Shown here: in pieces, positions 7,521 through 43,752 of the stretch
How the letters are laid out: every line of letters starts with the position of its first letter
Numbering within the stretch: position 1 is the first letter of the stretch
Source: Marsupella aquatica
Taxonomy: Eukaryota > Plantae > Marchantiophyta
Assembly: GCA_973895155.1 (NCBI GenBank)
Contig: OZ316892.1
Span: 29,456,932 to 29,520,931, forward strand
Direction: 5' to 3'
Length of the DNA: 64,000 bases
Made by a program: the position numbers and the translations under genes
The notes under the pieces: model-generated
Told to the model about the DNA's origin: nothing
The model's database searches: none
Seen by the model: only the letters and a program-made list of their open reading frames with translations

Positions 7521-8029
7521 CTTAAAAAAAAACTGTCGCACAAAAAAGGGCACAGAACATGAGTAACAACAACCACAAACTATCACCAGTTAAGAATTAT
7601 TTTTGTCTTTGTCTTTTTCATTTTTTAATTCCTTGTAAACCTTTTAAAATGTGAAGAAACTGCACATGATGAAGCTTTAGTTATTGCCCTCAATGTGTTG
7701 CCATTTCATTCAAAAACATATCCATTTTTTTATAATTGTACTTGTTTTCTTGGAGCAAGTACCAAGTGGAGGGGCAAGTCCAGATTGAGTTCATTATATG
7801 TTCATTGTATAGCACATGCAAATACAGTAAACTCTAGATAAGTGACACTCTCACTATCCAATTGCACTAATTTGTTTTTCCATTCCTTGATAAGTGCACA
7901 TCCCCTAAAATTTTCACTTAGTAATAAATGGCATCTCCACAGGTGAGCAGCCGTGTGACTCATTACACAAAATGTGAATACTTGCCCTAAATTTGATGTC
8001 CATAAGTCCAAATTTTCCTTTACTAAAAA

Positions 8030-10970: not shown

Positions 10971-11519
10971 ATATATTCATTCAAAGCGAATTATTATATA
11001 ATTTATGAACATCTGGGCAATGTAAAAAGTACATTTGGCTTTCAAAAAGTGTACATTTGGGCAAGCAACAAAAGTGATGGCCATCAGACCTACCACCATG
11101 TTCATCCTTTCTAAATGAACTGGGACTAGACTCCTACTAGTAAATATCCTTTATGAATAGAATAAGCAGCCCAAGGTTCCGAGCAGACTGGGGCTCTAGA
11201 TGGAGAAAAGGACTGTCCATTGTGCCCATGCAGGACACCCTTGCATACCAGCAGGAATCCACCGATATACATGATATAATCATATTTCTCACTTCATGTT
11301 CATGAGCCTTAATTCTCATTGATTAGTGAAAGGGGATATAAAGGCTTAGAAAGTTTGGCTTTGAAGGGTTAGGCTTATTAAAGAGCAACTCTGGGTGACC
11401 ATATCAAGCCTACATAGTTGGTGCTCTTACCCATAAGTGTAAATATAACATCAAAGAGAGGTTTGGCATTTAGTTGATGCCCTTTGTGGTTTTTACCTCT
11501 GTATATTTCAGTGCATTCT

Positions 11520-11925
11520 TGGAGAAGAATGCTCTTGTCAAGATTTTGATCACCTCTCTAGTTTCACTAAATCTAATAAAAATCAAAATCTCAGGCCTTT
11601 AACTGTATAAAGTTCATGTTTCCCAAGCGTTATGGGCAAGAGCCCCTCAAAACTCGAGCTGAAGCTATCATTTGTTGGGGCACTATATTCCACAATGCCT
11701 ATGCTTGTCAGTGTACACTTGAAGAAGAATGTCCCTGTCAAGATTTGGATAACCTCTTTAGGAAGGTTCTCCTCTACTTTTACAAAAATAGTTACAATAG
11801 AATTCTCAGGCCTTCAAGTGTATTAGGTTCCTGTTTCCCCAGCATTCCGGGCAATAATAGCCTCTCAAAACTCAAGCTGAAGCCCCCCTTTTTTTGGGGC
11901 CATTATATTCCACAATGCTCTCCTG
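11520..11925. repeat. ~215-bp tandem duplication upstream of CPN10
   Basis: CTCAGGCCTT...CTCAAAACTC.AGCTGAAGC...TATATTCCACAATGC occurs at ~11590 and ~11805. Confidence 0.75.
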
Positions 11926-19429: not shown

Positions 19430-21828
19430 TGCCAATCTGTCTTTCCGCAGTGTTTGGACGACGGATGTAGTAGCCTCCCGAAGCCTCGTGCCAATCTCAC
19501 TACTTCTCAGTGCAGATGTATCTTGACTTGCAACCAATGTTAAGTCGGGGGTGTGGAATTGTAGAATCCGATCTGCATGCTTGAAGTTATTTATTATTGT
19601 GCAAATTATACGATCCCTGATAACTTCATGACATATCGATTTGTCTTTGAGATCCAAGCGCAGCCCACAACCTCGCTTTAAAAGTTTCAATTAACTCATT
19701 AACAATTCCAAAGTTAATATTCAGAAACGACAATTTATATTTCAAGTAAGATTCAAATTCTCTCGGCGAACGTTGATACATAGAAACTTATAGGATCTAA
19801 ACACCATTTTCCCTCAGAAACGAAGCTTCTTCTCTGATGCTCTTTGCACTGCGCACCGACATCCAACTGGAACGGTGGCATTGGCAGTGCAAGCCTCTAA
19901 GGTCCGATACGTGAATCATACAGAAATTTTCCGAATTGTGACTACAGATGCTTGGTGGCACCAGTCCAAAACTATCTCAGGAGATGTAAATCGTAAAACT
20001 ACTTTTGCGAGACAGTGTCACTTGATGCATGCGAAACAGATTCAGAACTCTCCTGCTCCAAGAAACCATCTCAGGAATCAGTTCGAATCGTCGTCACTCA
20101 GGACACCCACCTCCTTCCTGGTGAGCATTACCATTGAAAAACCGAACAACAGCTCGTGCCGTAATGTTCTGGGACTGCATTACACGGATGTGTGGCAGAG
20201 CGGGTCCGTGGTTGGAGTCTCCACTGCTTTGGACAATGGGTTACTCCACCACATTGTACCCCACATTCCCATCCTTTCATTGCCACGGCCTTTCCGTCGA
20301 AAGCTACTGAATCTCGGACATGGTCCTTCTCCAACGCCACGAAGCACTGTGTTCGATCGCAAAGCACAGCAGTCCTCTGGCTGCAGCGACGATTTAGACC
20401 TGAATATGTCACCGCCATACATGGACCTGTCAAAAATGCGCAGACTCCTTGCTCACTATTCCAACTCTATATAACCAACGTCGATCGCCGGCGCCCGACG
20501 TTGGGGACCAAGAGCGAGGTTCGCAAGACGATCCGCATCCTGATTCTGCACTCTGTCCACTCTCCAGAAGCGGACATTAATCCCCAAGCTATCCAAGTAA
20601 CAAATCTTACGGTGCAGCAGCATAATCGATTCCGCGTTGGCCACCGGTGCACCATTAGAAGTCAAGAAACCATTCATCATCCAAGTGTCTATGTACCTAG
20701 TGATCGATTGGAACAGGTAGTCTGAATCCGTAATGAGCACAACGCCGTCCTTCCACACTTGCCAGGTCATATCCCTTAGTATAATGTTCACCGCAATGTG
20801 AGCGGCGAAGATCTCGGCCTTATTGTTTGTCTGGATCGTGCGCCCGGGAAGAAGGCCGCAGCAGTTGAGGGGCGAATCTCGCCCAGAATAGACGCCATAC
20901 GCAGCCCTGGCTCCTGGCTGACCATTTCTGCGGCACGCACCATCGATGAACATGGCAATTCGCCCTCGTGACCCGCCCATACGTGATACTTCATTCATGC
21001 GGTCGTAGAACACAAGTTCGGACGGCACAATGCTTCGGTTCGTGCCTGGTATCACATCCTCGAAGCATCTATTCGTCGTCTGTGCCATTCTGAATCTTAA
21101 GCCAGGTTACAGTCTGTGCGATGTTGCAATTGGAAGAATGCAATGCAGTAAGGAGATACTCAGCGACGTGAGACTCGGAGACAAAGCCAATACTCTGTGA
21201 ACGCGCAGAAGCGATAGCTCCAAAGTTCTGCATCCAAATCAAGCCACATTCAATTCATGAACTTCGGAGCTGAAGTACGATAAGAATCCAGTACATAAAT
21301 TGATCTGATCTAGCACGATGCAGGAATGATTATAAAAAACGTCCTCACCATCAATCTCTCAGGAAAACACGACAAGAACGGGAACAATCCTATGTCCTAC
21401 AATTGCATTACAAAGGCAGTCAGCTGCAATGTGAATCAAGCAGAAAAGTCATAGTCAAAGTCATAGTCGTCGCCTACATTCAGCCTGTAAATATTCAACG
21501 TTCCGATCACTTCTATGGAAGTTATTGACAGTGTGAGTGACTGCTCCAACTCATGAGGGTCACCGATAATTGATGCAAGGAAAAACCTCGCAGCTACTGT
21601 ACATAACTGAACGATTTAGCGGCTACCCATCAGAATTTCCTATCCTGAACTTGACGCTGTGACCAAAATTCAGTGACAGAGCCGTCAAAATGAACAAATT
21701 GTATATTATAGTATTAGATTATATTATATACTAGTCGACTAGTGGACTGGTAGATCATAGGACGACAAACTGTACAGAGGGACTGAAATAAAATGCGGCC
21801 CGTTTTGAGCCCCACGCCCCACAGAGTA
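19430..21828. repeat. Segmental duplication block A (RNase H unit), homologous to ~38720-41165 and partly to ~36845-37570
   Basis: Shared blocks include TTGAGATCCAAGCGCAGCCCACAA, CTCCAAAGTTCTGCATCCAA, GCGGCTACCCATC and GTGACAGAGCCGTCAAAAT. Confidence 0.88.
20456..21088 (-). CDS. Stand-alone intronless ribonuclease HI-like protein, copy 1 (210 aa)
   Basis: All four acidic catalytic positions are present: FIDGAC, NNKAE, ITDSDY, NQDADRLA. It also has a basic-protrusion-like segment WMMNGFLTSNGAPVAN. Confidence 0.88.
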   Translation of the reverse strand: MAQTTNRCFEDVIPGTNRSIVPSELVFYDRMNEVSRMGGSRGRIAMFIDGACRRNGQPGARAAYGVYSGRDSPLNCCGLLPGRTIQTNNKAEIFAAHIAVNIILRDMTWQVWKDGVVLITDSDYLFQSITRYIDTWMMNGFLTSNGAPVANAESIMLLHRKICYLDSLGINVRFWRVDRVQNQDADRLANLALGPQRRAPAIDVGYIELE

Positions 21829-22103
21829 ACCCTGCGTTAAATCTACGCTGCGTTAATGCGCTCCAAGTTTAGCGGCACCCCGTACCCTGCCCGTCACGAA
21901 ATCCAATGCAGCCTGCCCGTTCCCCGACGCGACTTCGGTTTATGTTCTACCATTTTGATTTCGACCGCCACAACTGCCATTCCGTCCGTCGTCCGTCCGT
22001 TTCGAACTCGGGCGGGAGCACGAACCGTCTCCCCTCCCCTCCCCTGCCCCGTCTCGATAGTCGACTACTGTCGAAACCCTGCCAGACCACTCAAGCGCGC
22101 TTC
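21829..22103 (+). repeat. Left TIR (core ~275 bp; gapped similarity extends to ~22225)
   Basis: Reverse complement of 30701-30975, with about 2 mismatches seen by eye. Confidence 0.95.
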
Positions 22104-22484
22104 CGGACACCGCCTGCACACGAGCTCACGGTAGAATGATGGCAGATTCATTTTCACGAGTGCTTCATTCTGAAGTGTCAGGATTGTGATGCCACTACTT
22201 TCAACGTGATCGTCATTGCAAGCAAAGGGTGCGTGTGATTCTGCCATTGCTACCTGATATCATGTTATGCCGCTGTTCATTTCCACCGGTTTCATTTCCC
22301 CCTAAATGTTTCTGGTATTTGTCAGTTCACATGCTCTTTGTCTTTGCGTTCGTGGTACTACTCTGCAAACACGTCGCCGTTTAATTTCAATTGCCCCGAG
22401 TTTTGTACCAGAAATATTTGTCTTCTAGTTTATGTTCTACCAACGCCGTGGCAGGATAATTGTTGGGAGCCTTTGCGTAATCCA

Positions 22485-25400
22485 ATGAGTCATGAAACAT
22501 GGGAGTACGTACAGATTCCACCGGCTGGGAAATTTTCGTCGCTACAGATTGTTTGGAGCCCATATGACCAAGCTCTCATTCCATGGAACCGTCTCACTGA
22601 TTTTAAAGATGGCGAAGGCAGAAAGGATCCAAAATTTGAGAGCTCATTTCATATTAGATCCTCAAGAAAATCTAATTCAAATAACACTGATTGGATAGAA
22701 TATGCCATCTTCTGGTGTTCCTATGGCCCACAAGAGGAAGACATGCGTAGCGTAGCTATTCCTCCACTGCCTGGAACAAAACCAACATCAGGAGTTGGGA
22801 GTAGACCTAGATTACGTAAGAATGCATTCAACAACCATGCCAAGCGAGGATGTCAGTGTCATTTCATTGCGAAGAGGATGAAAGCCAACCCTGATGCTGT
22901 TCAGCTCTCCTACATAAACAGGCAAGGATGCATTCTGTCTAATTATGCATACTCCAAGTCTGTTGCAGGGTCCACGTTCACATGAATTTATGTGCTACAG
23001 TTCAGGTTTTGCCTAATTTTGTGCACATAGTTGTTTTTACTCTCTACCATCACATTTTGTATGCAATGGTTTATGTTCTGTCTGTGTTTCAATTGCAGAA
23101 AGCATTGTAATCAAAGAGGGGACATTGTGCATGGCGATTGGGATCCACAATTGGGGCCACCCTCTTGGGGACCAAAATGCACCATTGCTCCATGGTTGAC
23201 CAGAGATATCCGGAAGCACCTTGAGGACTTATTGAGGGCAGGATGGTCCGTCCTTGATATTTATGACCTCCATTGTCAATCGCAGTTTGAAAGAGATGGT
23301 GATGATCATGGACACAATACCACTGATCCTGGTGTGACACTAACTTTCGATGGGAGAGATGACCTGGTTTCTAAACAAGATCTTCGAAACCTCAAACGAA
23401 AAGTTGACAAGGAGACCTGGCTATGGTCTGATAATGACCAGGCATCGATGCGCAAATGGATGGGGATGTATCCTGAGAGAGTGCTTCTATCACAGGAGGA
23501 CATGGCGGGCCCACCAGAGCAGGAATTCATACTTTCATTGCAGTCACCTTGGCAAAGAGCGCAGATGATCACCCTATCTCATGGATCAGTGTTGGCGTTA
23601 GATAGTACCTTTGCAACTAATAAATATGGGGTATGTAATTAGCATAATTTCATCTCCTCAACATTCGGTGCATTCATGGCATTCCATGTCTTGTAGTTCA
23701 TGTTTTGCCCTCTTCATATGTTTTCTTGTGTCAGTTCCTTCAATTATGGTTCATGTTCTGCCATCACACCTATTTGACCATGCAGTCGACTTCATTTTGT
23801 GTCTTTGTTGAAGTTCATGTTCTGCCATCTTCATATGTTTTGTTGTGTCTATCCCTTCTGTTATAGTTCATGTTCTGCCATGTCACTACACAATGTACTT
23901 GAGTTCATTATTTGTCTTCTAGTTCATGTTCTGCCTTTCTAACCCCAGTGCGGTTGCAGTTCCCTTTCTTCACGCTCGTTGCTTTTGATCAACACCAGAT
24001 GGGATTACCCATAGCATGGTGCATCCAGCAGTCTGAATCAGCTGAGCACATCGCTACTTTTTTGAAGGCAGTAAAGGATACAGCCTTGGCGCACAAACCT
24101 GATTGGAGTCCTAGCTGCTTCATTATTGACTGTGCTCAGGCTGAAGTCAGCGCATTGAAAGTTGTCTTTCCCGATATCCCCATTTATTTTTGCAGTTGGC
24201 ATGTTTGACGGTATGTTCTTCCACATTGAAAACATTTTGTGTTGCAAGTAATGTTACCAATGTTACCACATTTGTAACTCGTCGTATGAAGTTCATGTTC
24301 TACCCAACCCACTTACGTGTTTGTGTATACATAGCTTGGAAGGAGAATTTGATCAAGACTGTACCAAATAGAACCAAGCTTCTGGATATGAACGATGATC
24401 TGGGGGATCTCATGTACGCCAATACTGAGGAAGACATGCAAGTTAAGTGGCGATCCTTCCAAGCAAAGTACCACATGGAACAACGATTCCTAGCTTATTT
24501 TGAAGACACTTGGATGCACAGAACAGGTTCATGTTCTGCCGACCTCCTACTCATTTTTCCTTGCGATGAGTCAAGCATATTTCTTGGCAGTTTTCTCATG
24601 ATTACAACTAATTATTGTTTTTATGCATTTGTGGAATCACAGCAAAGTGGATGAGGGCTGTTCGAGACATGCCTCGAGCAAACCAGAATACAAATGGTGC
24701 AATTGAAGCTTGGCATTTAACATTCAAGAAGATGATCAAGAGGAATATTGGGTCCATTGGAGCTCTGCGTCTAGACAGGGTTGTCACTTCTTTGTTCCAG
24801 GTTATGCTTCCTTTCTTTTGGTACCAGCTTCGGTGCAAAGCAAGGGGGAGAGTCATCAATTACAAAAAGGAAGAGGTTGTTCTCAATAGCCTCCACAAGG
24901 CCATGCATGCCATGAAATTCCACGAAGTCTATTTTCCTTATCCAAGCCTGCCCAACCAGGCAATAGTAAGAAGTGCCAAGCCTGATGGGAAGGAGCATAT
25001 GGTTCGAAATATATTCTCAAACTTTCCTTCCTGTGATTGTAAATGGGCGGATGAGGGAAATATGTGTAAACATCAGATCAAGGCTCTCTTATTTAGAGGC
25101 TTCGATGGAGGTGTTCTAGTACAACAATTAGGGTCCAGGTTTGGTACTCAGATGGGTGGCATTGACCATTTGGAATTGCTTCAACACGAAGAAACAGAGC
25201 TGGAAGGAGGACAAGCAACCGGAGTCCATGAGGACACAGACATCAACCAACAACCTGAACAGGTTCATGTTCTACAAATCTCTCTTTGTTTAAGTTTATA
25301 GAGTTTATTTAAGTTTATGTTCTACACTCATTCACGTTGACGGCGTTTGTTTAAGTTTATGTTCTGCACATGTTCATGTTGACGGCGTTTGTTTAAGTTT

Positions 25401-26158
25401 ATGTTCTGCACATGTTCATGTTGACGGCGTTTGTTTAAGTTTATGTTCTGCACATGTTCACGTTGACGGCGTTTGTTTAAGTTTATGTTCTGCCCATGTT
25501 CACGTTGACACAGGACCACTTTAAGTTTATGTTCTGCACCTTTGTTTAATATGTTCTGCCAATGTTTGTTAGCAACATCTTACTGTAATTTTCTGTGATT
25601 CAGATTTTACAACACTGTATTGTAGCTGTTCAGAATAGAGAGCCAAATATGAGGGCGGACTTAATCCACATCTTTGATCAGCAATTGGCTATTGTTGAAG
25701 GAGATGACTACCTCACAGAACAAGCATTCTTGGCATCACAAGTCACACTCACCAAACTCAAAGCTCAACAACAAATCAAAGTGCTTTCAGGGAAGGCCAA
25801 TATAGGTCCTGCAGATGCATTTGTAAGGCCTATAGGGCTGACATCTAAGCGTCGCTTGGGGGTTATAGATATTTACCATGGGGGCAAGAGAGGGCACCAA
25901 ACTCAGACACCATCTATACAATATGATGAACGCCCGGTGCCATGTGCACTGCCTTCAAAGCGTAAAGTAACTAGGGAATCTAATAGACAACATCTATGTA
26001 GGATAGGATTACAATATCAGGAAGGCAAGCGACGGCGAAGAACTGCTAATTCGCCCTTGCCAGTAGTTCCAAACCGTGTTATTCATCTTGGAGGGGGTGG
26101 TAGAGATATTGACATGAATATCGATCTGAATGTTGTACCTCTGGAAAATGATGAATAA
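22485..26158 (+). pseudogene. MULE DDE transposase with SWIM finger; exons ~22485-22921, 23099-23630, 23960-24210, ~24333-24526, 24643-25262, ~25604-26158; disabled
   Basis: Motifs FWCSYGP, KRGCQCHFIAKR, LALDSTFATNKY (D1), FIIDCA (D2), CSWHV (CxxH), TNGAIEAWH (E) and the SWIM CDC...GNMCKH. In-frame TGA at 24206-24208 and an apparently mutated acceptor (TACAT) at ~24332. Confidence 0.9.
25310..25560 (+). repeat. 42-bp tandem array in the last transposase intron
   Basis: About 4-5 copies of GTTGACGGCGTTTGTTTAAGTTTATGTTCTGCACATGTTCAY; each unit carries the GTTTATGTTCTG motif. Confidence 0.92.
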
Positions 26159-26289
26159 TAATAGAACATACCCCTTCGTTGTAACCCTTGTATATGTGTG
26201 CGGCAAAACATTGACAATGAGTCTTGTGATACAGATTATTGCGAGTGAATGCAAAACATGAATATGACTCGGTCAAAAGTACCCAAAAC

Positions 26290-27062
26290 ACATGACAGAA
26301 CATAAACTCCTATGCCCATAATCCATGCCAGAACATAAACCCAAGTATGTTGATGACGGAACATAGACTACCATGTACATGTCGATGACAGAACATGAAC
26401 TACTATGTACATGTTGATGACAGAACATAAACCCATGACTTCATAAACTACCATGTACATGTTCATGAGAGAACATAAACTAGGTACATGTTGATGACAG
26501 AACATAAACTACTAGATGCATGTTGATGACAGAACATAAACCCAGGACCGAACGTTGATGACAGTTCATAAACCCATGACTTCATAAACTACCATGTACA
26601 TGTTGATGACAGAACATAAACTACTAGATGCATGTTGATGACAGAACATAAACCCAGGACAGAACATAAACACCATGTACATGTTGATGACAGAACATAA
26701 ACTAGATGTATAGAACGTTGATGACAGAACATAAACCCAGGACAGAACATAAACTACCATGTGTTGATGCTCTAACATAAACATGTACATGTTGATGAGA
26801 GAACATACACTAGATGTACAGAACGTTGATGACAGAACATAAACCTAGGACAACGTTGATGACAGAACATAAACCTAGGACAGAACGTTGATGACAGAAC
26901 ATAAACCCAAGTATGTTGATGACAGAACATAGACGGTATGTACATGTTGATGACAGAACATAAACTACGATGTACATGTTGATGACAGAACATAAACCCA
27001 GAAGTATGTTGATGACAGAACATAGACTACCATGTACATGTTGATGACTTGCAAACATAACT
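26290..27062 (-). repeat. Intergenic array of (AT/AC)GTTGATGACAGAACATAAAC units with short variable linkers
   Basis: Roughly 25 copies by eye between the two convergent stop codons. The core is the reverse complement of the motif in the 25310 array. Confidence 0.95.
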
Positions 27063-27276
27063 CAGGATGAAGCTATTGTTCAATATTGGTGAAGGCATGA
27101 CTGTAAGTGCGTGAACACACAATTTTGGCTACCATTCATAACCCATAGCATAAAAAGGGTGTAACACCATTGTGTCAAACTGTGGGAGGGGACAATCAAC
27201 CATTGTAACACCATTATATGGAAAATTCATTGTATTGAGAGTTGCCAAGAGGCAGTTCACTTTACATAGGAAACGC

Positions 27277-30200
27277 TTACACGAAGGCTACCGTGGACAC
27301 AGGATCACATTTCAGGAGAGGGAACTTGCAAACGTCATCTAGAGGCCCAATGCTTGGACAAGTCTGTCCCGAGGCTTTCTGAATTTGAAGATTGATGAGG
27401 GTTTGGCGATTTGCAAGTAGGCAGTCGACATGCCTTGGTAGAATTGGGATGCCATCCGGGCCCACCCACACAAAAAGGTACCCCGGCCATGGATGATCTA
27501 CATGAATAGGTCGAAAAGGCACAACAATTTTCCTGCGCCACAAAACATAAACCATTACACATACGGCTAGGACATATGCAAAACATGAATCAAGTGTTGA
27601 GCAGATTGTTACGAGCGAAGGGTGATTACCTTGTGTGATAAACCCAGTGCCAAATTTGAATGCTGTTGAAGGTCTTGCGCCTCGCAGCATGTAAAGGCAA
27701 CCAAGTGTTCCTACTGTATTTGCCTCCAACATTATAGGTGTCGATGAATGGAATACTAACCCCATCCACAACTAGGTCTGAATAGGGAGGAATAATTTTG
27801 GCCAGGTTGTCAACGTGATGTGTTATGATCTTGCCCAATTCTTGGGTCCATCTCATCTTAGTCCATGATTCGGGACCAGGTAGGGGTGCACTGGTGTGTT
27901 CTTCATTGAGGAAAGACACCTTCTTTGTCTTCTTTGCCTGTTTTTTGTGACCAGGCACCTTTTTCTTGCTAATGTGCTGTTGCTTTTCCCTTCCCTGCAA
28001 GAACATCAGGCATGACAATGAATTAGGGAATATAACAACAGCAAATGGCATAGAACAGGAAAGAACACAGACTGACTTGAGCCTCACCTTAATTTCCGAC
28101 AAGCGTTTCTCATATGCCTTCAGACGAGTTTCATGTGTAGGTTCTCCTCCTTCTCCTTCCTGTTCCTCTGCAAATGTACTCTCTTCTGTGGCTTCTTGGC
28201 TGTCTTGTTGTGAAGATACTTGTTGTGAAGCTTCTTGTTGGGCCCCATCTTCTGAGGGCCCATCTCCTGGGACACCATCATCCTCGGGCCCGTCTTCTGT
28301 GGCCCCATCTTCTTCATCCCCATCATCTTGGGCCCCATCTTCTGTCTCCCCATCTTCTGTGGCAGGATCATCTTCTGTCTCCCCATCTTCTGTGGCAGGA
28401 TCATACTTTGCCTTGTCATCTTGGGCCCCATCATGTTGGGCCCCATCTTCTGTCTCCCCATCAGAATTTTCCTTGTCTTCTGTGGCCCCATCATCATCAT
28501 CCTCTCCAACCTGTTCTTGCGAAGCATGCTCACTAGTGGCATCCTCTGCCCCATCTTCTGTGGCCCCATCAATGTCTTTCCTGTCTCCACCCCTTTCAGC
28601 TTCATCATTTGTGTTGTCATTTGTCTGGAACGCGTGACAAACATCTTCAGCAGAACATAAACCAAAAGCCACAAGTAGAACATAAACCAGAAGCAGAACA
28701 TAAACCAGAAGCAGAACATAAACCAGAAGACATGCCTAGTATGAATGGCATAGGGAAACACATCATACAAAATTGCGATAGGATAGGAGGTCTTGGAATA
28801 AAGGCAAAGACAATGTGAGGTACATGGAGAGTGTTGTTGATGTTTTTGCGCTTTTTCTGAGTTGGTTCATGGCTGTTTGGTACACGCCTTCTCTTCCGTG
28901 TAGACGATCTGTCAGGACCTACAGCTTTTTCCTGCACACAAGTAGAAAGAGTCGCATTCCATAATACAAAGGAAAGAACATGAATTTGCTTGGAACATCA
29001 ATGTCCTTAATAGATAGCATATGAATGTGCCTAACCTGGCTTTCGATGGAGGTGTTCCTTCCCGGTGTGGCCTTGGTCCTAGACCTCAAGCCCTGTCTCT
29101 GTCCTTGTGTTTCAGAATTCTTAGCAGGCTTCTTACATGGGGCCTTAGCCTTAGCCTTACCCTTCGCTCTAGTGTTCGGAGGTGGGTCCTTCTCAACAAG
29201 GACATGCTTCTTAAATACAATGTTGTCAGCGTCCAAATCAGAGCGGGAAAGATCCAGTTGGGGCATCCCATCGTCACTGCTCCATTCGGCCACATCTTCT
29301 GGAAGCATTGCCTATGACAATCATGCATTTCATATGTCAAACATCACTACCGCATTAATATAGCAATACAACATAAAGTAAAATTCACATACCCTTCTCG
29401 ACAAAACATAACTACATTTCACGTACCCAGTACCGACAGAACATAAACTACAATGAATTTACCTCATACCGACAGAACATCAACTACATTGCACATATAT
29501 ACCTGGCACCGACAGAACATAAACTACAATGAACTTACCTCATAGCGACAGAACATGAACTACATATATATTGCACATACCCTAGCTCGCATCTCCTCTG
29601 GATCAATTTGGCGTCTATGATTTTTCCAGAAATCTTCAATGTTTGATTTCACAGCGTTGAGCAAGCTGGTGAAGCGTTTAGATTTCCTCCATGCATTGTA
29701 CCGCTCGATCTGTGGCCTTACTCAGAACCCATGTTGTCTCATCCTCATCCCCTTCATGAGCTAACTTGAGGTTATTCGCCCATCGTAGCAACCACGACAT
29801 TCGCTGTCGCTTGAGTTTCCAAACTCGTGCAAGGTAGGAACCCGAAGTTGACTCTTTGTTGTGAATCGTGGCTGCCGTACTCAGTGGATTCCTTTAGGCA
29901 CACACAAACCAAAGCATTCTCTGAATAGCAAAACATAAACCAGGAGTAATGAAATCAATCCATACCAGAACATGAACTAGTACTCGTGTGTGGATTGAAC
30001 GCAAAATGATCGAACCTCTGCCGTGCTGCCGTTTTGGGACGACCAACCGGACACGGTTCTGGATTCATGCGATGTACTGATCGCATGTGATCCAGAAAAG
30101 CCTGCTTCTTCACGAAGTGTTGACATGAGTCATCCGTCATGATTTTGCAAAGAAAACCTGACCCTAATGTTCTTCTGTGGGTTGGATTTTTAGCTCGCAT

Positions 30201-30308
30201 CCAATGTTCGTTCATCTTGGCTATTGGGAACTTCTCCCATTCTGACTCCGGTGGAACAGGAGGCTTCCCCTTCCTAGGCCCTACAGCACATTGCCGAGAT
30301 GGCGCCAT
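27277..30308 (-). pseudogene. Second MULE gene of unknown function (C2H2-like finger, basic and acidic regions, Trp/Pro-rich C-terminal domain); exons ~30308-30015, ~29891-29581, 29311-29036, 28931-~28823, 28624-28088, 27994-27630, 27532-27277
   Basis: GT-AG junctions join MAPSRQ...CKIMTDDSCQHFVKKQAFLDHMRSVH to RVWKLKRQRMSWLLRW...PQIERYNAWRKSKRF, then KRRR/KKRK tracts, DG(A/E)TED repeats, and WTKMRWTQELGK...IQIWHWVYHTR|KIVVPFRPIHVDHPWPGYLFVWVGPDG. There is an apparent frameshift near 29720. Confidence 0.75.
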
Positions 30309-30700
30309 TCCCTGCATGACAATACCACAACAACGTTGAGTAGAACATAAACTGTGAATTTGAAGCAAGGGTTGGGAGCGACATTGAAACAATCCATTTA
30401 ATTGGTAATACCAGAGACTCAGTACTCATATGACATGCAGCAGCGATCAACTGAATGAGTTGCTTACTTGAGCAGGATGTCCGAGTGAATTGTCGGGCTT
30501 GAGTTTCGAAACCGTGCGAAGGCGAAATGTGATAGAACCTAAACAATGACACAGTATTTGCAAATGAGGAAAAAACCGTTTGTAAAGCCTTAAACCCCCC
30601 ACAATGCAGACGTAGATTGCAAGGTGCTGAAACATCCGATGCTTGCAATGACGATCTCGTTCAAAGCAGTGGAATCACAATCCTGACGTCGTGTGCAGGC

Positions 30701-30975
30701 GAAGCGCGCTTGAGTGGTCTGGCAGGGTTTCGACAGCAGTCGACTATCGAGACGGGGCAGGGGAGGGGAGGGGAGACGGTTCGTGCTCCCGCCCGATTTC
30801 GAAACGGACGGACGACGGACGGAATGGCAGTTGTGGCGGTCGAAATCAAAATGGTAGAACATAAACCGAAGTCGCGTCGGGGAACGGGCAGGCTGCATTG
30901 GATTTCGTGACGGGCAGGGTACGGGGTGCCGCTAAACTTGGAGCGCATTAACGCAGCGTAGATTTAACGCAGGGT
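30701..30975 (-). repeat. Right TIR
   Basis: Reverse complement of the left TIR. Confidence 0.95.
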
Positions 30976-31733
30976 CACAGAGTAGCATCTGGTAAGTACA
31001 AGACTACAAGCTATCTTCGCGTCAGAAAGCTGGTTGAGAAGTGGGACCCTTGACCTCCTTGCAGTGATTTTTTTAGTGGCGAAAATTGGCCAAATTACAC
31101 CTCCCCAAAACAGCTTTCGTCACTTTTGGCCAACATTAGTTAGTATTTTTCTGTCTCATTAGCTAGTGTTACCTAATTACAGGCCCCCATTAGCCAGAAT
31201 CTAAGGGTCATCCTAAATTTAGGGAGATCTAAGGATAAAACAATCAATTAAATAATATTTTGAGCATTTCTCCTTCGCACAGAGGACATTGGCCACTTCG
31301 GTGAAAAAGTACAAACCAAAAAGTATAAAACTTAAAAAAACAGGCTGCCTCTTTGGTCTCATCTGGGTCTCTCCCTTTCCCTGCCCTTTATTGGGTCTTT
31401 TTGCCTGTCCTTTATTGGGTTTTGCCAGTGTGATCCTGTCTATTGCATCTTATGGAAGTCCTGAAAGGCACACAAACCTACCATGAGCTCAACAGGCGCA
31501 CTTGTCTAAATCACGTCCACTTTTTCCTTTCAAAGTAGAGGGGTTCTCTCGTTTAAAATCTCCTCGTTCGTGTACACCAGTTGGTCGTCCATCCGCAGAA
31601 AAATCTTGCCATCAATAATTAGCAGCGTCAGTGAAGACATTTTCAACGTCGCAATGAATCATTTTATCTACTACATAAGAAGCTCAACTGTGTGCTGAGC
31701 ATGAAAGCATGAAACCTTTCTTTGGGAGGCCTG

Positions 31734-32036
31734 TACAACTTCCAATTTCCCAAAATAAGAAGATTCAAATTCAGTGCGATTAATCCTTCAATGGTTCAAT
31801 TTCTGTAGCTATCTTTCGGGATGTGTACAACTTCCAATTTCCCAAAATCAGAACATTCAAATTTGGTGCGATTAATCCTTCAATGGTTCAATTTCTGTGG
31901 CTGTCGTTCGGGATGTTTACATGCAGTAGTGAAGTACAAGGATAAATCTCATCTGAGGTATCGAGAAACAAATTGAAATGAGTTTTGATAACGCAAGGAT
32001 GAACCTCATCTGAAGTATTGAGAAACAGATTGAGAT
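31734..32036. repeat. Two adjacent local tandem duplications (~92 bp x2 and ~57 bp x2)
   Basis: TGTACAACTTCCAATTTCCCAAAAT...CTTCAATGGTTCAATTTCTGT occurs twice; CAAGGAT.AA.CTCATCTGA.GTAT.GAGAAACA.ATTGA.ATGA occurs twice. Confidence 0.85.
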
Positions 32037-32415
32037 GAATTTTGGTAAAGAGACCAGCAGAGTATCGTGGTTCCCGGGGCAGCCCGAGTCATGGAAGAAA
32101 GCAGCAGACTGGAAACACGAGCTGGATGCGAAGAGGAGAGGACCGTCATGGCTCGGAAAGACAGCAGAGGATTTTGCTCAAATGGCCGAAGCCAGACTGG
32201 CTACCAGGCAGGCATCCTGGATCGGGCATAGAGAGAAGACGGCAGAGGATTACGCTGATGAAGCTAAGAAAGCGCTTCTGCAAGAAAAGTGGATTAAGTA
32301 CATAAGGAGAATGAGCAGGAAAAAGTCCTTTGGACTGGGTAAAGATCGGCCGAAGACCTTGGAGGAGATGGCAAGGGAACAGCATGAGAAAAGTATGGTG
32401 CCAGCTAAGATCTAA
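32035..32415 (+). CDS. Hypothetical W/K/E-rich repeat protein fragment
   Basis: Repeats SWLGKTAED, SWIGHREKTAED and FGLGKDRPKTLEE; the same repeat family occurs in the downstream ORF. Confidence 0.45.
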   Translation: MNFGKETSRVSWFPGQPESWKKAADWKHELDAKRRGPSWLGKTAEDFAQMAEARLATRQASWIGHREKTAEDYADEAKKALLQEKWIKYIRRMSRKKSFGLGKDRPKTLEEMAREQHEKSMVPAKI

Positions 32416-33381
32416 TTTTTCCTGTTCTCTGTGGAAACTTCCATAATTTCTTTGCATAGCATTGTAGGTAAGAGATTTATAGTTGACCAGGCTTTTGATT
32501 GTCTGGCGAAAGAACTCAATTTTATGTATGATCCTGGTGTACAATGGAATGTGATTAATTTCCAGTCTGCTATCGATCATTCGTACTTCACATTCCGAGG
32601 ACTGAGGTAGCTAGATATGCAAAGGAAACTTCAGAGAGGAGTTGAAATGTTAACTCGCACAGGGTTAAATGAAGATCGATCATTCATTAAACAACACGAT
32701 ACCTTGTTAAAGCTTGCACTGGCTGACACTGTTCGCAGCTCCAATAGCGGTGGAATTTCAATCAGGACGTTCGCATGTTGGTTAGGTTTTTGTAGATCCT
32801 CTCTAGCATGAATTGTAAGGCCGCTCTTCTGTTGGGCTACTATAGCATTTATCTTTGACAATCGTGAACTCCGAAGAATATCTTCATATGGGACCTTCTC
32901 GACGGCTGTGTGTTTGGTGCAGACCAATGAAGGACAATTTGGGAGGTGACATAGTAGAGGTTCAATGAAGACCAATGTTAGCTTGAGCCGATATACAGGA
33001 AAATTTCATGAAACCAACGTCTGGAACCAACACAAAATCTTTCATCCAGTATCCCAACCAACAATTCTCCTCCCTTTGACGTATTCTTTTACTTTGGGCA
33101 TGAAAATGATTAGGGTTTTCTTTCCCCTGCACTTACTTTTGACAAAGACACTGACAAAGGGCCATGCTGTAGAGCGCGGACATCCAGAGTCTGCATTCGA
33201 AATGCAATTTGAACTAACCTTATCGACACGAAGGGCTCCTGATAATAACAGATTACCCTTTTCCTCACGGAGGTTCATGTGCCTCCTCAAGTTCAACATA
33301 CAAACTAGACTATTTTGTAAGGCCCACAAATTAAGTCTATGGTCTGGGGACCTTGAGCAGGTCTACACGACAACTGGATAG

Positions 33382-34577
33382 TCTGGAAGAGAAGAATTTC
33401 TGCAAAGAGGGAATATGGAGCTAACATCGAGATCAGGGCCAAGACGCCAGAGGAATTGAGGCAGGAAGACAGGGACAAAAAGATGCAGCTGGGATGGATA
33501 AAATGGAAGCGAAGGCTATCAGCTAAGCGTGATTATGGACTGGGCCGGGCCAGGTCTATTACAGAAGATGAGCGGGAAAGGATGCGGATCGCCGGCATTC
33601 AAGAGAAAGGATGGATTCTGCCTTACATGTGTGATGCTCAGAAAAAAGGATGGGTGAGAAGGTACCGCGGGTCTCTCTGGAACTTTGACAAAGAGAAGAG
33701 TGCGTCCAACCTGCACAAAGTAGACCAAGCCATAGAAGCCAACAGAATCAAGCACCTAGAAATGGAATGGGTCAAAAACATCCGGAAGATCCAGTTGCCC
33801 AAGTTTGGGCTTGGCGATACAAAACCTAAGACGGCCGAAGAACTCGCGCAGGAACGAGATTGGAGCGAAATTGAGAATCAATGGGAAAGCCTCACGACGA
33901 AACGGATGAGGAAACGGACGGAATTTGGGTTAGGTCCCAGAAGGTCATTCACAGCTGAAGAGGTGAGAAAAATGGCCACTGACGAGGAGATGGAGGACGG
34001 CTGGGAGAAACACACAACAAAGGAAACGTGGAACGAAGCGGGCAAGCTGGTTTGGGAGCCGAGAATTCCCACTCTGGAGGAATTGGCACTGCTGAAGATT
34101 CAGATGGAGCAAGAGAAAAACTGGAAAAGCGCAATCCAGGAAGAAACTCTGCGTGACATGTTCCCAATCCGGTCTTGGCCATGGGAGCCCAAAATCAAGA
34201 CCGAAGAGCAGCTCAAGGAGGAAAAGAAGTGGCTAAAGCAGGAAACAGAGTGGCTGAAAGGCAGATCCAGCTACGATCAACTCCAGGAGGGATTTCCAAC
34301 GGTGCAAGAGCTAGTCATTGCAGACTTGGAGCAGGTGTGGGCATTGGAGGACATGGAAGCAGAAGTGAGAGAAGAGAGGAAAAAAATGCTGCAGAGCTTT
34401 AGACTACGTTGCCCCCTCGTGATTAGCAAGGAAAGTGTGCAGAAGGTAGGATCGAAAAAGGAGAAGCTCAAGGAGAAAGATAAAAAGGGAGAGGAGGAAG
34501 CAGAGTGGGAGAAGATCATGATGTACATCAACGATAAGATGGACATTGATTTTGAAGACGATGAAGATGAAGAGTAG
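33382..34577 (+). CDS. Hypothetical W/K/E-rich repeat protein (frame stays open upstream of the 33456 call)
   Basis: About 400 open codons with ~7 degenerate ~37-aa units (E.EW.K..RR....FGLG...PKT.EE) and an acidic tail. No initiator ATG is evident. Confidence 0.55.
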
Positions 34578-39686: not shown

Positions 39687-40280
39687 TTATGTACCAAGAG
39701 CAAGGTTCGCTAGACGATCCGCATCCTGATTGTGCACTCTGGATACTCCCCAGAAGCGGATATTAATCCCGCAGTCGTTCAATTGACGAATCTTATCGTC
39801 CAACTCCACAATCGCATCAGCGTTGGACACCGGTAAACCACTGGCAGTCAAGAAACCATTCATCACCCAAGTGTCTAAGTAGTTAGTCATCGAGCCGAAC
39901 AGATAGTCGGAATCCGTAACGAGCACAACGCCATCCTTCCACGGTTGCCAATTCACATCGTTAGAGATAATGTCTACCGCCTTCTGAGCAGCGAAGATCT
40001 CGGCCTTATTGTTTGTGGGGTTCGTGCTTGATGGAAGAAGGCCATAGGAGTTGCGGGGCGAACCTTGCGCGGAAAAGACGCCATACGAAGCCTTGGCCCA
40101 TGGCTGACCATTTCCCGGGCACGCACCATCGGTGAACATGGCAATTGGCCCTCGTGGCCCGCCGAAGCGTGACACTTCATTGGAGCGGTCATAGAACAGA
40201 ATTTCGGACGGCACAATCTGAGTTCGGGTCGTGCCCAGGTCCGCCTCTGGATAGAAGACTCTTTTGCTCCTCTGTGCCAT
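39687..40280 (-). CDS. Stand-alone intronless ribonuclease HI-like protein, copy 2 (197 aa)
   Basis: FTDGACPGNG, TNNKAE, VTDSDY and NQDADRLANLAL; collinear with copy 1. Confidence 0.88.
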   Translation of the reverse strand: MAQRSKRVFYPEADLGTTRTQIVPSEILFYDRSNEVSRFGGPRGPIAMFTDGACPGNGQPWAKASYGVFSAQGSPRNSYGLLPSSTNPTNNKAEIFAAQKAVDIISNDVNWQPWKDGVVLVTDSDYLFGSMTNYLDTWVMNGFLTASGLPVSNADAIVELDDKIRQLNDCGINIRFWGVSRVHNQDADRLANLALGT

Positions 40281-42269
40281 TCTGATTCTTCAGTCAGGTT
40301 TCAGGCTGTGCAATGTTGCAGAAGAACGTGCGGAGCAATGCAGTAAGGAGATGCTCTGTGATTGCGCAGCAGTGATAGGGGATAGCTCCAAAGTTCTGCA
40401 TCCAAGCCAAGCCACATTCAATTCATGGACTTCGTAGCTGAAGTACAGAACGAAACTGGTACACAACTTGGTCTTACGACGAAGGAATGTTTGTCAAAAA
40501 CGTTCTGATCTCGGTGAAGTCCGACAAGAATAGTAACATTAGAGAGTCCTAATACTATAATATTGCATCACAAAGACCGTCAATTCTTTGCAGCTTCAAA
40601 TCAAGTAGAAAAGTCATACACATAGCATACATTCAAGAAAATGGACATATCAACCTGTTGGCAACGTAAATTAAATGAGTTTCGCCTTCCGATTGTCGAA
40701 TCGTTTGTATCATCAATCAATCAGAAAACTAAGTCAAGAATGGGAACAATCTTGTGTCCTACTCCTGCATCACAAAGACCGTCAATCGTTTGCAGCTGCG
40801 CCGCGAATGAGGCAGGAAAATCATAGAACATTCCGACGGTTTCTACGGGTATTTATTGACAGTGAGAGGCTAGCTGCTCCACCAAAAAAGTTTCACCGAT
40901 AATACAAGGAAATCCTCGCAGCTGCATAACGAACGGCTCAGCAGCTACCCATCCGAATATCCGATCTCGAACGTGAAGCTGTGATCGTGACTGTCAGTGA
41001 CAGAGCCGTCAAAATCAATCAAGGATTCCATGTTACAGTATCACTGAGTATGACAAATTGTCCAGTAGTTGGAACTGAAGGATTCCATGTTACGTATCAC
41101 TGAGTATGACAAATTGTCCAGTAGTTGGAACTGAAACTGCTGCCCATTTCACGCCCCACAGAGTATCAATCCAATGTCAGAAAGGGAAACCTGAATAGGG
41201 GCGCTCCCCTGAATAGAAGAAGATACGCTCTCGAACACAGTTGAGACACAATTCATTGAGAAATGAATCCGACAGCAGAAAATTAAGGACACCCGAGACA
41301 CAATTGCAATATGAACCCAATAGCAGAAAAGGTTCAATAGTTGGTGATTGAATTTAAACATGACTTCGATTATCGGAGTGCCATCTCGATCCGACGCCCA
41401 ATATATAAATAATTATTGAAATTTTGGGCTGACTAACAAATGAGTTCCTCCCTTCGGACCTGGAAAGAATTATGTCACTAGACCTTGGTACTACGAAAAT
41501 GAGTTCCCTCCTTCCGACGCTATCTATGCAAAAGTCTCACTAATTATGAGATTCAAGGAAAATCTCGTTGCAACAGATCTATTCAGCCTGTCCATGGCCA
41601 GCCCATCCATCCAATCTTCAACGTGACGTTATGATCATAATTGTCAGTCGCAGAGCCGTAAAAAATGAACGATTCGAACATTAGAAATTAATCGATGCTC
41701 CCCATTTTGAGGGCCCAAGGAGTATTGCCAGAGACAGGTCGAGAAGAACTTACCCAGAACCTGAGGAATAATAAGGAGAAGAGAGCACAACAAAACCCAA
41801 GGATGGAAACAACAAGGGTATAATACCAGTGACAAAAGGTATGTGTATAAAGTGACAAGAAGGAAAAGTGATACAGAAAAGATAATTCTTGCTGCCGGCA
41901 AAAGGATCAGCAGAGTTGATGACACCCACAAACCTCCACGCAATCTCAGCTGTTCTGGAGATGCATTGATACAAAACTTTTCATCTTGCCAAAAGACATT
42001 TCTTTAATTCCAAAGTCTGGCATTGAGAAATTTCGATCATTTCTTTTGCTCTAACACAATTTTGCCCCTGAAAGTAGGAATGAAATCTTAGTTAGTTACG
42101 GAATTGGAAGTGTGTACCGTAGAACTCTGCAGGCCAAAATTCTGTGGATGTTCAAATTTTCCAACGAAATTCTCCTGCTTGAATGACCGAAAAATTAACC
42201 CATGAAAAACCTGAAATGCCATTGAAGCCCATCTCAATGCTCAAAGCTGAATCGAACCCATCACAGGAA

Positions 42270-43752
42270 TGTGGTTGAAACAAAGACAGTCTTCATCACA
42301 ACATGGACAATTGATCCTCTTCCACACGATCTCGGTGTTCTGGCGACCGAACCTCTGCTTCGTAAAAGAGCTCGTCCCCAGGTTATATTGAAAATGTCAA
42401 TCCAGTCTATAACTAGAAAAGAGCTCATCATCCGTATAAACAGCGGCTACCGTCGGAATTAGAATGCTAGAAGCGACTGGTTTAATTTCAGGAAATGAAC
42501 ATGGTTGAAGAAGGGTCCTTGAATTTTCATCTAATTCAAGGACATATATGGCAGTGGGAGTTATCACATGGATTTTCCTCCTGCTGCGAATGCTGCTCCC
42601 CATATGGGTTCTGTAGGGGGCTCTAACGACCTCCACTCATCCTTAAGTGGATGATAAGCCTCCAACAGAGGTCCTGCCTCTTCGAATGTCATTCCATGAG
42701 AACGTTTATAGACATACCCGCTATGCACAACAAGCTCGTTTCCAACTGTCACAACTCGATGCTGTGAGATTGCAGACATCATGGGCTTAATTCTCGACCA
42801 GGTGTCAGCCTTGAGATCATACATCTCAGATTTGCGAGAACGTGTGTGATTGGCATTACCCCCAAAGCAATCAATCTTGCCGTCAATAGCACGTGACCAT
42901 GATGCAGAGTAATATGCTCTTGGATCGTGCATGCTTGCACATCGTTTCCATTGCCCCTGTCCTACTAGATCCAGCATGTAAACTTTCTTACTACCTCTAC
43001 GCCTGCCTCTATAATAGTTCCGTCCTCCCAAGACATATATTTTGCGAATGAGATCGACACATCGGCAATTCCATGGGAAGCCGTCCGCAAGACCCATGTC
43101 TTTCATCAAGCCTTTCAAGCCGAAGGTTCGTATGATTATACGGGATGGTGTGGAGCGAGCAATGCAAAACCGAGAGTGACGAATGACAGTGGATCTGCTA
43201 TAGACTGGTGACAGCCAGACCTTTTCTTGTGTACCGGTGTGGCTGCACTCTGATAGAGCGCCGAATAGGAAGTAAGCAGTGACAATAGAGATGCGAATCA
43301 CTGATAGCAGACGTCACACGCGGGGTCAGACGTAGATGAGTTTCTCTCCAACTATACAAAATCTAGTGGACAGAGATCAGGCTATCGAGGTGATAGTTCG
43401 TGGTGCGTGCAAACGTACAGGCCCATGCAAAGCAGCGATCTGAACCGCTGCAGTGAACATTGTTTCGGTGGGCTGGCATACTACAGTAGACTGATCTTGA
43501 AGTGAGCATGCAGTACTAGTCGACGAGTGGTGTGTTGCTGTTGCCCTCGTTTTCGCTGCTGCAAGGGGCGAGGCAGTATGTATACTGTGACCAATTGAAA
43601 GCCTTGGCTTGCCACTCGGTCAGTATTTTGGGACAAATCATTGGCAACGTTGTGTCTTCTAGGCCTCTCGGTTGTGAAAGGAGGTTGTCGTCGGGATTCT
43701 CATGAATGAATGTCCTGCGCTTTCCTTTCTGTAATTTTGATGTCAGAGACAT
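42270..43752 (-). pseudogene. F-box/kelch-repeat gene, frameshifted
   Basis: Kelch repeats KIYVLGGR...VYMLD...WKRCASMHDPR and AIDGKIDCFGG...SEMYDLKADTWSRIKPM; continues in other frames (GGKIHVITP). A weak F-box-like segment lies at ~43600-43690. Confidence 0.7.

What the first reader, a model, noticed from the sequence alone, without database searches (positions are those of the whole stretch)
21829..30975. Mutator element filled with one strand-polarised ~11-bp motif plus an unknown second gene: candidate VANC-like factor/target-site system
Seen: GTTYATGTTCT(G/A) and close variants occur roughly 60 times by eye. Sites include both TIRs (~21938, ~30856), the transposase 5' region and introns (~22428, 23069, 23749, 23813, 23866, 23922, 24291, 24527, 25263, and the 25310-25560 array), the 26290-27062 array, and the introns or 5' region of the second gene (~27541, 28651-28725, 28975, 29437-29560, 29929, 29966, 30341). 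The motif is nearly absent from exons and from flanking DNA. Known: Arabidopsis VANDAL Mutators encode VANC proteins that bind short motifs amplified as tandem repeats in the element's non-coding DNA and cause sequence-specific hypomethylation; maize Spm TnpA also binds repeated subterminal motifs. Inference: the C2H2/acidic second gene, in which I recognise no VANC similarity, may be an independently evolved factor for this motif.
Basis: partly seen in the sequence, partly recalled or inferred. Interest (0 to 1): 0.9.

Follow-up and report, generated by a model that had tools for sequence, protein, structure and literature searches.

The report
Liverwort transposon tiled with own motif
A recently inserted two-gene Mutator transposon, probably from a liverwort, carries 47 exact copies of one 11-base word, all outside its predicted coding exons and all pointing inward, which likely form docking sites for its unnamed second protein to keep the element expressed, in the manner of the Arabidopsis VANC system but without a recognisable VANC domain.

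Summary
The element (21829-30975) has 275-bp TIRs with 2 mismatches and a 9-bp target duplication; an empty site exists in another run. GTTYATGTTYT occurs 47 times inside (57 with one mismatch) and twice in the other 54.9 kb; shuffles give 0.01. None of the 47 is in a predicted coding exon, and 12 of 13 predicted introns carry a copy (one mismatch allowed). Polarity is two-sided: each copy follows the sense strand of its own gene. Nineteen sites share only the motif, and one old intron has the motif as its splice donor. A distant Mutator family has a different word in a similar layout. Gene 2 (about 712 codons, broken in this copy) has no Pfam match, so it is not a VANC member, but it carries a conserved unnamed C-terminal domain with five homologues. 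Best reading (0.4): gene 2 reads the motif and keeps the element active. Rivals: the transposase binds it (0.22), it acts in RNA (0.15), a host factor binds it (0.1), neutral spread (0.08). Binding and methylation effects are untested. New variant of a known kind.

The parts
21820..21828 (.). Left copy of the 9-bp target-site duplication
   Evidence: Identical to 30976-30984; run X1 holds an empty site with one copy (table 5c)
21829..22103 (+). Left TIR, 275 bp, CpG-rich (o/e 1.42); a 9-bp direct repeat at 4 and 20 bp from the end that occurs only in the TIRs; one motif copy 110 bp from the end (21938)
22229..22454 (+). Predicted 5'-UTR intron of the transposase gene with one motif copy (22428)
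   Evidence: splice signals read from sequence; no RNA support
22485..26158 (+). Mutator transposase gene, 6 coding exons (22485-22921, 23099-23630, 23960-24210, 24333-24526, 24643-25262, 25604-26158), 862 codons; broken in this copy by a stop at codon 406 and a changed acceptor at 24332
   Evidence: Pfam MULE and SWIM; 56% identity over 469 columns to Calypogeia fissa P0001; most other contigs differ at 24332
22922..23098 (+). Predicted GC-AG intron with one exact motif copy (23069)
23631..23959 (+). Intron with five dispersed motif copies 53-69 bp apart
24211..24332 (+). Intron with one motif copy (24291); its donor also resembles the motif core
24527..24642 (+). Old intron whose 5' splice site is the motif itself
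   Evidence: junction matches P0001; same position and phase in the distant family, where L002 has a canonical donor
25263..25603 (+). Intron that starts with the motif and holds a 42-bp tandem array (25303-25509, 4.9 copies); 7 motif copies
26263..27062 (-). Intergenic array of 30-32-bp units with about 20 motif copies in the orientation of gene 2
27277..30308 (-). Gene 2, 7 predicted coding exons (30308-30048, 29920-29581, 29311-29036, 28931-28824, 28624-28088, 27994-27630, 27532-27277), about 712 codons: C2H2-like spacing, W-rich helical part, basic tracts, acidic tandem repeat, conserved C-terminal domain; broken in this copy at 29896-29894 (stop) and 29705-29708 (4-bp insertion); exon 2 frame unresolved
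   Evidence: homologues P0002-P0004, P0006, P0007
27367..27883 (-). Conserved unnamed C-terminal domain of gene 2, split by intron 27629-27533
   Evidence: 45% identity to P0002, 40% over 133 columns to P0007; P0006 and P0007 run across the junction; no Pfam or NCBIfam match
28088..28624 (-). Exon for an acidic tract of short tandem peptide repeats (15-bp period in DNA)
28625..28823 (-). Gene 2 intron with an 18-bp array, 4 motif copies
29312..29580 (-). Gene 2 intron with a 36-40-bp array, 3 exact and 1 one-mismatch motif copies
29921..30047 (-). Predicted gene 2 intron with two motif copies
   Evidence: a diverged contig has insertions between the two copies
30312..30467 (-). Predicted 5'-UTR intron of gene 2 with one motif copy (30352)
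30701..30975 (-). Right TIR with one motif copy (30866)
30976..30984 (.). Right copy of the target-site duplication

Best explanation
This is a broken copy of a recently mobile two-gene Mutator family whose non-coding DNA is tiled with one 11-base word, and that word likely serves as the docking site of the gene 2 protein, which would keep the element transcribed against host silencing. Shown: the element, the motif counts, their non-coding placement and inward polarity, the independence of the sites, a different word in a distant family, and a conserved domain in gene 2. Inferred steps: (1) both genes are transcribed inward from promoters in the TIRs; (2) gene 2 protein enters the nucleus through its basic tracts and binds the word through its C2H2-like/helical part or its C-terminal domain; (3) dense sites, not single ones, give specificity, as for VANC21 and TnpA; (4) the acidic repeat contacts histones or recruits host demethylases or activators, lowering silencing along the whole element; (5) sites are gained by point change and by tandem expansion wherever coding allows, in the T-rich orientation that introns tolerate, which would explain the sense polarity.
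For: 47 exact sites inside against 2 outside and 0.01 in shuffles. 11 of 13 predicted introns hold an exact copy, 12 of 13 with one mismatch. Nineteen sites picked one per array or dispersed locus share only the motif; their flanks are 29-30% identical, so one expanded repeat does not explain them. The intron at 24527 is shared in position and phase with a family at about 25-30% protein identity, where L002 has a canonical donor; here the donor is the motif. The distant family has 0 copies of this word in 15 of 15 loci and its own word, RRGTATTRYA: 12, 6, 9 and 4 copies in the four loci tested against shuffle means of 0.15-0.47, sense-oriented and then flipped after the transposase stop. The TIR tips have a different repeat found nowhere else in the window, a better candidate for transposase end-binding (inference). 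Gene 2 variants among the rows shown are 9 of 16 synonymous against 24% expected (p 0.005; exon 2 left out). Homologues P0002 and P0003 end at the same residue as exon 6, suggesting the same intron. VANC21 sites are non-coding, tandem, dense and same-oriented, and VANC proteins have tandem peptide repeats (PMC5735166).
Against: No binding, expression or methylation data. Gene 2 has no match to DUF1985, DUF287, PMD or any DNA-binding family in Pfam, and the C2H2 spacing is atypical. Its C-terminal domain also occurs in P0007, an apparently unspliced protein with an unrelated N-terminal half and unknown context, so the domain is not tied to this motif or element type. Co-variation of gene 2 with the motif could not be tested: the distant loci show no gene 2 relative (tblastn best E 0.16) and end before the element does. 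Perfect sense polarity is not required for DNA binding. Coding exons are CpG-depleted (o/e 0.43-0.46), so the family has a history of methylation. In gene 2 exon 2 the variants are 2 of 21 and 3 of 14 synonymous in the frame I chose and 12 of 21 in another frame. AtMu1 transposase alone binds and hypomethylates its element ends.
Confidence: 0.4

Rival explanations
1. The transposase binds the word. One copy sits in each TIR and the internal copies load more transposase for self-activation or synapsis; gene 2 is a MURB-type helper for insertion.
For: One copy per TIR at 110 bp. AtMu1c transposase binds its TIRs and activates cognate copies with no accessory gene (bioRxiv 10.64898/2026.08.24.746577). 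MuDR has long TIRs with promoters for two genes, and MURB is needed for insertion (PMC10401008). No second gene was seen in the 1.6 kb of L004 behind that family's array.
Against: AtMu1 binding and hypomethylation were reported at the termini, whereas 45 of 47 sites here are internal. The TIR tips have their own repeat. L004 and L007 end before the element's end is seen, and an earlier unchecked note reports an accessory zinc-finger gene in a family with GTATTGCA arrays.
Confidence: 0.22
2. The word acts in the pre-mRNA. An RNA-binding protein (gene 2 or a host factor) reads it in introns and downstream regions to license splicing or processing of the element's transcripts.
For: 47 of 47 copies follow the sense strand of the nearer gene. 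Two introns begin with the motif and a third with its core. The last copy in several introns lies 9-43 nt from the acceptor. The core fits a loose branch-point pattern (recalled).
Against: The TIR copies lie about 290 bp upstream of the first predicted donor, probably untranscribed (inference). About 20 copies sit in the intergenic array. The word is rare in 54.9 kb of flanks that hold host genes, so it is not a general host intron signal. Intron T-richness (41% T on the sense strand) can explain polarity without an RNA role.
Confidence: 0.15
3. The word is a site for a host transcription factor or chromatin protein that the element has hijacked; gene 2 has another job.
For: No DNA-binding family was found in gene 2. 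Host PMD proteins oppose silencing through short motifs (bioRxiv 10.1101/2024.09.27.615353).
Against: A distant family uses a different word in a similar layout, which fits an element-encoded reader that co-evolves with its site. Only 2 exact copies lie in the flanks.
Confidence: 0.1
4. The copies are neutral products of slippage and small duplications inside the element.
For: More than half of the copies lie in tandem arrays. No helical phasing of spacings (Rayleigh p about 0.6 on 23 distinct spacings).
Against: Arrays with 18-, 32-, 36- and 42-bp units and many single sites share only the motif. Polarity is perfect. An old donor carries the motif. None of the 19 non-coding variant positions shown falls in a motif copy (627 of about 4,450 non-coding bases), though that sample is small and cut.
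Confidence: 0.08

Closest known systems
VANDAL21 (Hiun) with VANC21, Arabidopsis (PMC5735166, PMC10398659)
   Same: Mutator element with an accessory gene; one short motif enriched in introns, intergenic and terminal non-coding DNA; dense, same-oriented, often tandem; differs between families; accessory protein has tandem peptide repeats.
   Different: No DUF1985/DUF287/PMD match in gene 2; long near-perfect TIRs, while VANDALs lack or have degenerate ones (PMC6446971); two genes rather than three; probable liverwort host, while VANC is called dicot-specific (PMC13547354); motif doubles as splice donor; binding and demethylation unshown.
Maize MuDR (mudrA, mudrB) (PMC10401008)
   Same: Long TIRs, 9-bp duplication, two genes; TIRs hold the promoters in MuDR; convergent layout with a repeat-rich intergenic region (recalled for MuDR).
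   Different: Gene 2 is about 712 codons with a different make-up, and no MURB relative came up in the searches; an element-wide intronic motif is not something I found described for MuDR in the passages read.
Spm TnpA and AtMu1 transposase as sequence-specific activators (bioRxiv 10.64898/2026.08.24.746577)
   Same: Element-encoded protein, clustered short motif, family-specific words; motif present in the terminal region.
   Different: Their binding and hypomethylation are at termini; here 45 of 47 sites are internal. Not a CACTA element. Gene 2 shows no similarity to its own transposase (best blastp E 1.6).
Yarrowia Mutyl with mutB (PMC6446971, passage)
   Same: Mutator element with a second ORF credited with DNA binding.
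   Different: Fungal, 22-bp TIRs; no similarity tested.

Membership tests
Mutator-like elements (MULE) | MULE DDE transposase domain, often with SWIM finger | tested here: met
   Pfam MULE E 5.6e-12, SWIM E 7.7e-4
Mutator-like elements (MULE) | TIRs and 8-11-bp target duplication | tested here: met
   275-bp TIRs, 9-bp duplication; empty site in run X1
VANDAL/VANC | Accessory protein with DUF1985 and DUF287 (PMD-like) domains by sequence profile | tested here: not met
   No such Pfam hit at E up to 1 or 10; exons were scanned one by one, so a very distant split match could be lost
VANDAL/VANC | PMD/DUF1985-like fold | tested here: inconclusive
   Models of homologues P0006 and P0007 had mean pLDDT 46.5 and 44.1; gene 2 itself was not folded
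VANDAL/VANC | Short motif dense in non-coding regions, tandem, same orientation | tested here: met
VANDAL/VANC | Motif differs between related families | tested here: met
   One comparison only: the distant family L001-L014 lacks this word and has another
VANDAL/VANC | Absent or short degenerate TIRs | tested here: not met
   275-bp TIRs with 2 mismatches; PMC6446971 notes that some members of the clade have TIRs
VANDAL/VANC | Accessory protein binds the motif and causes sequence-specific hypomethylation | not testable with these tools
   needs EMSA, ChIP and methylome data
MuDR (mudrA/mudrB) | Two genes facing inward from long TIRs | tested here: met
   layout; promoters not tested
MuDR (mudrA/mudrB) | Second gene homologous to MURB and needed for insertion | not tested
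   No MURB sequence was compared; the gene 2 searches returned only unnamed proteins
Spm/TnpA (CACTA) | CACTA ends, 3-bp duplication, TnpD transposase (recalled) | tested here: not met
   9-bp duplication and MULE transposase
AtMu1-type self-activating transposase | Motif confined to TIRs of a single-gene element | tested here: not met
   45 of 47 sites internal; second gene present

The most novel reading that the evidence does not exclude
The element encodes its own reader of nascent RNA: gene 2's unnamed domain recognises the sense-strand word in every intron, including the donors rewritten into the word, so that the element's transcripts are spliced or protected from silencing only when gene 2 is present. 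That would be a transposon-encoded, sequence-specific RNA-level licence, with a portable domain that also turns up in other mobile-element proteins such as P0007.
Probability: 0.1. Interest if true: 0.88.

Novelty: new variant of a known kind. Interest (0 to 1): 0.58.

Why it matters
VANC anti-silencing is described as dicot-specific and PMD-derived. It makes the question directly testable: one 11-base word, two candidate proteins, several genomic copies and an empty-site allele. A new sequence-specific demethylation or activation module would also be of use for epigenome editing. If the word works in RNA instead, it would be a new way for a transposon to control its own transcripts.

Tried and rejected
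No whole genome is held, so full-length copies could not be aligned. No RNA holder was listed among the 5 runs. The gene 2 C-terminal exon found nothing among longer proteins by word search. Structure models of P0006 and P0007 were poor; fold searches gave no clear match (best Z 3.8 and 7.2), which neither excludes VANC21 nor shows a new fold. Solved-structure sequence searches: nothing for alignment A3 and exon 1, one weak frataxin hit at E 0.67 for exon 2. ESM Atlas: no named neighbour for the shared domain (best 0.82); 0.88-0.89 to ATHILA and Transposase_32 clusters for the N-terminal half of P0007, a lead only. NCBIfam: nothing. No relatives of P0007 or P0001 in viral or prokaryotic contigs. 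Paired-motif scans gave 23 and 106 loci with at most 8 copies each and no transposase or gene 2 match: treated as chance. Helical phasing: not found. CpG o/e of introns (0.60-0.65) against exons (0.43-0.46) was judged too thin and is inflated by one array. Gene 2 as an inverted duplicate of the transposase gene: rejected, only the TIRs and a 48-bp stretch match in DNA and nothing in protein. My first reading of exon 2 with an acceptor at 29892 was replaced by one at 29921; neither is proven. A bacterial promoter scan was irrelevant. A paper search with two recalled Arabidopsis gene ids found no paper holding them among the 7 listed. Sasaki et al. 2022 (EMBO J) was not held and Tanaka et al. 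2026 on the VANC21 structure was not read. No complex prediction was run.
Full report
1. The element. Bases 21829-30975 are bounded by 275-bp inverted repeats that differ at 2 positions and by a 9-bp direct repeat. The + strand encodes a Mutator transposase (Pfam MULE E 5.6e-12, SWIM E 7.7e-4): six coding exons, 862 codons, one internal stop at codon 406 and an acceptor at 24332 that most other contigs read differently. Its nearest named relative is a Calypogeia fissa protein (66% identity for one exon; 56% over 469 columns), so the host is probably a liverwort (inference). No genome is held. In contigs of public runs the summed depth inside the element is about 6 (X1) and 8.5 (X3) times that of the flanks; the tool warns that this is no copy number, but it suggests several copies. 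Run X1 has a joint from 21828 to the right flank with a single copy of the duplication, an empty site. The insertion is therefore recent and polymorphic, and this copy is broken.

2. The motif is real. GTTYATGTTYT occurs 47 times in the element and twice in the other 54,853 bases; with one mismatch 57 and 8. Shuffles of the element's non-coding bases give 0.01 and 0.78. None of the 47 lies in a predicted coding exon, although these make up 51% of the element; 11 of 13 predicted introns hold an exact copy and 12 of 13 a copy with at most one mismatch. The exon models come from open frames, splice signals and homology, not RNA, and I drew them knowing where the motif lay. Polarity is two-sided: 17 of 17 exact copies left of 26200 are on +, 30 of 30 to the right on -, so each copy follows the sense strand of the nearer gene and points away from the nearer end.

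3. It is more than one expanded repeat. Arrays have unrelated units of 18, 30-32, 36-40 and 42 bp. Nineteen sites, one per array plus the dispersed ones, share R-GTTYATGTTYT-RC and little else (flank identity 29-30%; the sites were picked by the motif, so only the flanks are informative). Two introns begin with the motif (24527, 25263). The one at 24527 has the same position and phase in a distant family, where L002 has a canonical donor; the simplest reading is that the donor here was rewritten into the motif (inference; direction not rooted). Spacings show no helical phasing.

4. A distant family has another word. Fifteen metagenome loci encode a transposase 27-38% identical to the query exon; 14 are copies or fragments of one family, and L015 is a short match set aside. 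None of the 15 has this motif. The family carries RRGTATTRYA: 12 copies in L007 6000-12292, 6 in L004, 9 in L009, 4 in L002, against shuffle means of 0.15-0.47 (4 of the 15 loci were tested; the pattern was derived from these loci). The copies lie upstream of the coding region in sense orientation and behind the stop codon, first sense, then flipped. They are fewer and not in the coding-region introns. No second gene was seen, but the loci end too early. Earlier AI notes report an accessory zinc-finger gene in a family with GTATTGCA arrays; I could not check that.

5. Gene 2. On the - strand, seven predicted exons give about 712 codons with a stop at codon 96 and a 4-bp insertion at 29705-29708. 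Most contig depth lacks the insertion (387 of 550 in X1, 814 of 887 in X2, 117 of 140 in X3, 72 of 72 in X4), and 25-100% reads a sense codon at the stop, so open versions likely exist. Among variant rows shown that fall in four exons with a secure frame, 9 of 16 are synonymous against 24% expected (p 0.005); those rows were the best 40 of 1,034. Exon 2 was left out of that count and goes against my model: 2 of 21 and 3 of 14 synonymous in the chosen frames, 12 of 21 in another frame that holds 5 stops. The protein has C2H2-like spacing near the N-terminus, a W-rich part, basic tracts, an acidic tandem repeat and a C-terminal domain. Pfam and NCBIfam know none of it. A full HMMER search with the C-terminal exon gave 5 hits: P0002 (45%), P0003, P0004, P0006, and P0005, a choline-binding repeat protein that I treat as chance. 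P0002 and P0003 end at the same residue as this exon; P0006 continues and matches the next exon (35%, E 2e-10), which supports the splice. A profile search added P0007 (607 aa), which shares only this domain and has an N-terminal half with weak Atlas resemblance to ATHILA and Transposase_32 clusters (lead only). The genomic context of these proteins is unknown. Folds were too poor to use.

6. Mechanism. A family-specific word, placed at high density wherever coding allows, reads best as a protein docking site under selection. The TIR tips have a separate 9-bp repeat found only there, which could serve the transposase and leaves the internal word to another reader. Gene 2 is the obvious candidate, and its basic and acidic parts suit a chromatin protein (inference). 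I put 0.4 on gene 2 reading the word to keep the element active, 0.22 on the transposase as reader with gene 2 as an insertion helper, 0.15 on an RNA-level role, 0.1 on a host reader and 0.08 on neutral spread. The sense polarity can follow from intron composition (41% T on the sense strand) or from an RNA role; nothing here separates the two.

7. Comparison with what is known. PMC5735166 (parts 1-2 of 6 and passages): VANC21 binds a 9-base motif in non-coding regions, arrayed in one orientation at high density, often tandem; VANC has DUF1985 and DUF287 and tandem peptide repeats. PMC10398659 (passages) agrees. PMC13547354 (passages) calls VANC dicot-specific and MAIN/PMD-derived; bioRxiv 10.1101/2024.09.27.615353 (passages) links PMD-C to DUF1985. 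bioRxiv 10.64898/2026.08.24.746577 (abstract, section 3 part 1, section 7, section 9 part 1) shows TnpA and AtMu1 transposase acting through clustered terminal motifs. PMC10401008 and PMC6446971 (passages) cover MuDR, MURB, Mutyl and the TIR state of VANDALs. The element works like VANDAL in its cis-layout but fails VANC membership on domains and TIRs. I found no paper on such a system in a bryophyte; the library lacks most subscription papers, Sasaki et al. 2022 was not held, and no supplements were read, so a survey there could bear on novelty.

8. Verdict. Observation confirmed; interpretation partly supported; new variant of a known kind; interest 0.58. Earlier notes of this scan describe similar motif-plus-accessory-gene layouts in other plant and fungal elements; they are unchecked and lower the surprise of the pattern while leaving this word, this domain and the motif-donors as the new parts.

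Noticed in passing
L007:8043-8345 and 11184-11665; L004:1595-2156: The distant family's word RRGTATTRYA shares the core GTATT with the VANC21 motif YAGTATTAY (PMC5735166), and its flipped copies are followed by a telobox-like TTTAGGG; may be chance.
   Followed up: partly
L004:2670-2783 and 3680-3797 against L007:7081-7320: Sequence behind that family's transposase repeats, in direct orientation, pieces of the region upstream of it: a second promoter-like region, a tandem copy or the start of an accessory gene.
   Followed up: partly
P0007 (residues 85-290 and 448-573): An unnamed 607-aa protein joins a helical half with weak ATHILA/Transposase_32 resemblance to the same C-terminal domain as gene 2; the domain may move between classes of mobile elements.
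   Followed up: partly
window 31067-31240: Many contigs of all four runs have loose ends at 31067-31069, 31110 and 31163: another, more abundant repeat begins about 90 bp right of the element.
   Followed up: no
window 26341-30885: One X1 contig joins these two places (21 letters on the short side, weak): a possible deletion derivative that lacks gene 2.
   Followed up: no
window 22177-22231 and 30633-30687: A 55-bp, 87% complementary extension of the TIRs in the two 5' leaders, suggesting once longer TIRs.
   Followed up: partly
window 20456-21106 (-) and 39687-40289 (-): Two similar stand-alone RNase H ORFs (Pfam RNase_H E 1.9e-18 for the first); the element sits about 720 bp upstream of one.
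   Followed up: partly
window 8338-9804 (+): A 488-codon ORF that looks like the reverse transcriptase and RNase H of a copia-type element (recalled resemblance), with tandem repeats at 7010-7530.
   Followed up: no
window 32014-32415 and 33357-34577 (+): W/K/E-rich repetitive ORFs without a significant Pfam match (the longer one was scanned).
   Followed up: partly
window 87-647 (-), 42564-43313 (-), 53964-55601 (+): Host-like ORFs: a glycosyltransferase-like start (recalled resemblance, no Pfam hit), a Kelch-repeat protein (E 1e-16) and a protein with a weak NXPE4_C match (E 0.13).
   Followed up: partly
window 22922-23098: A predicted GC-AG intron in the transposase gene; three transposase exons end in the same five bases before their donors.
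   Followed up: no
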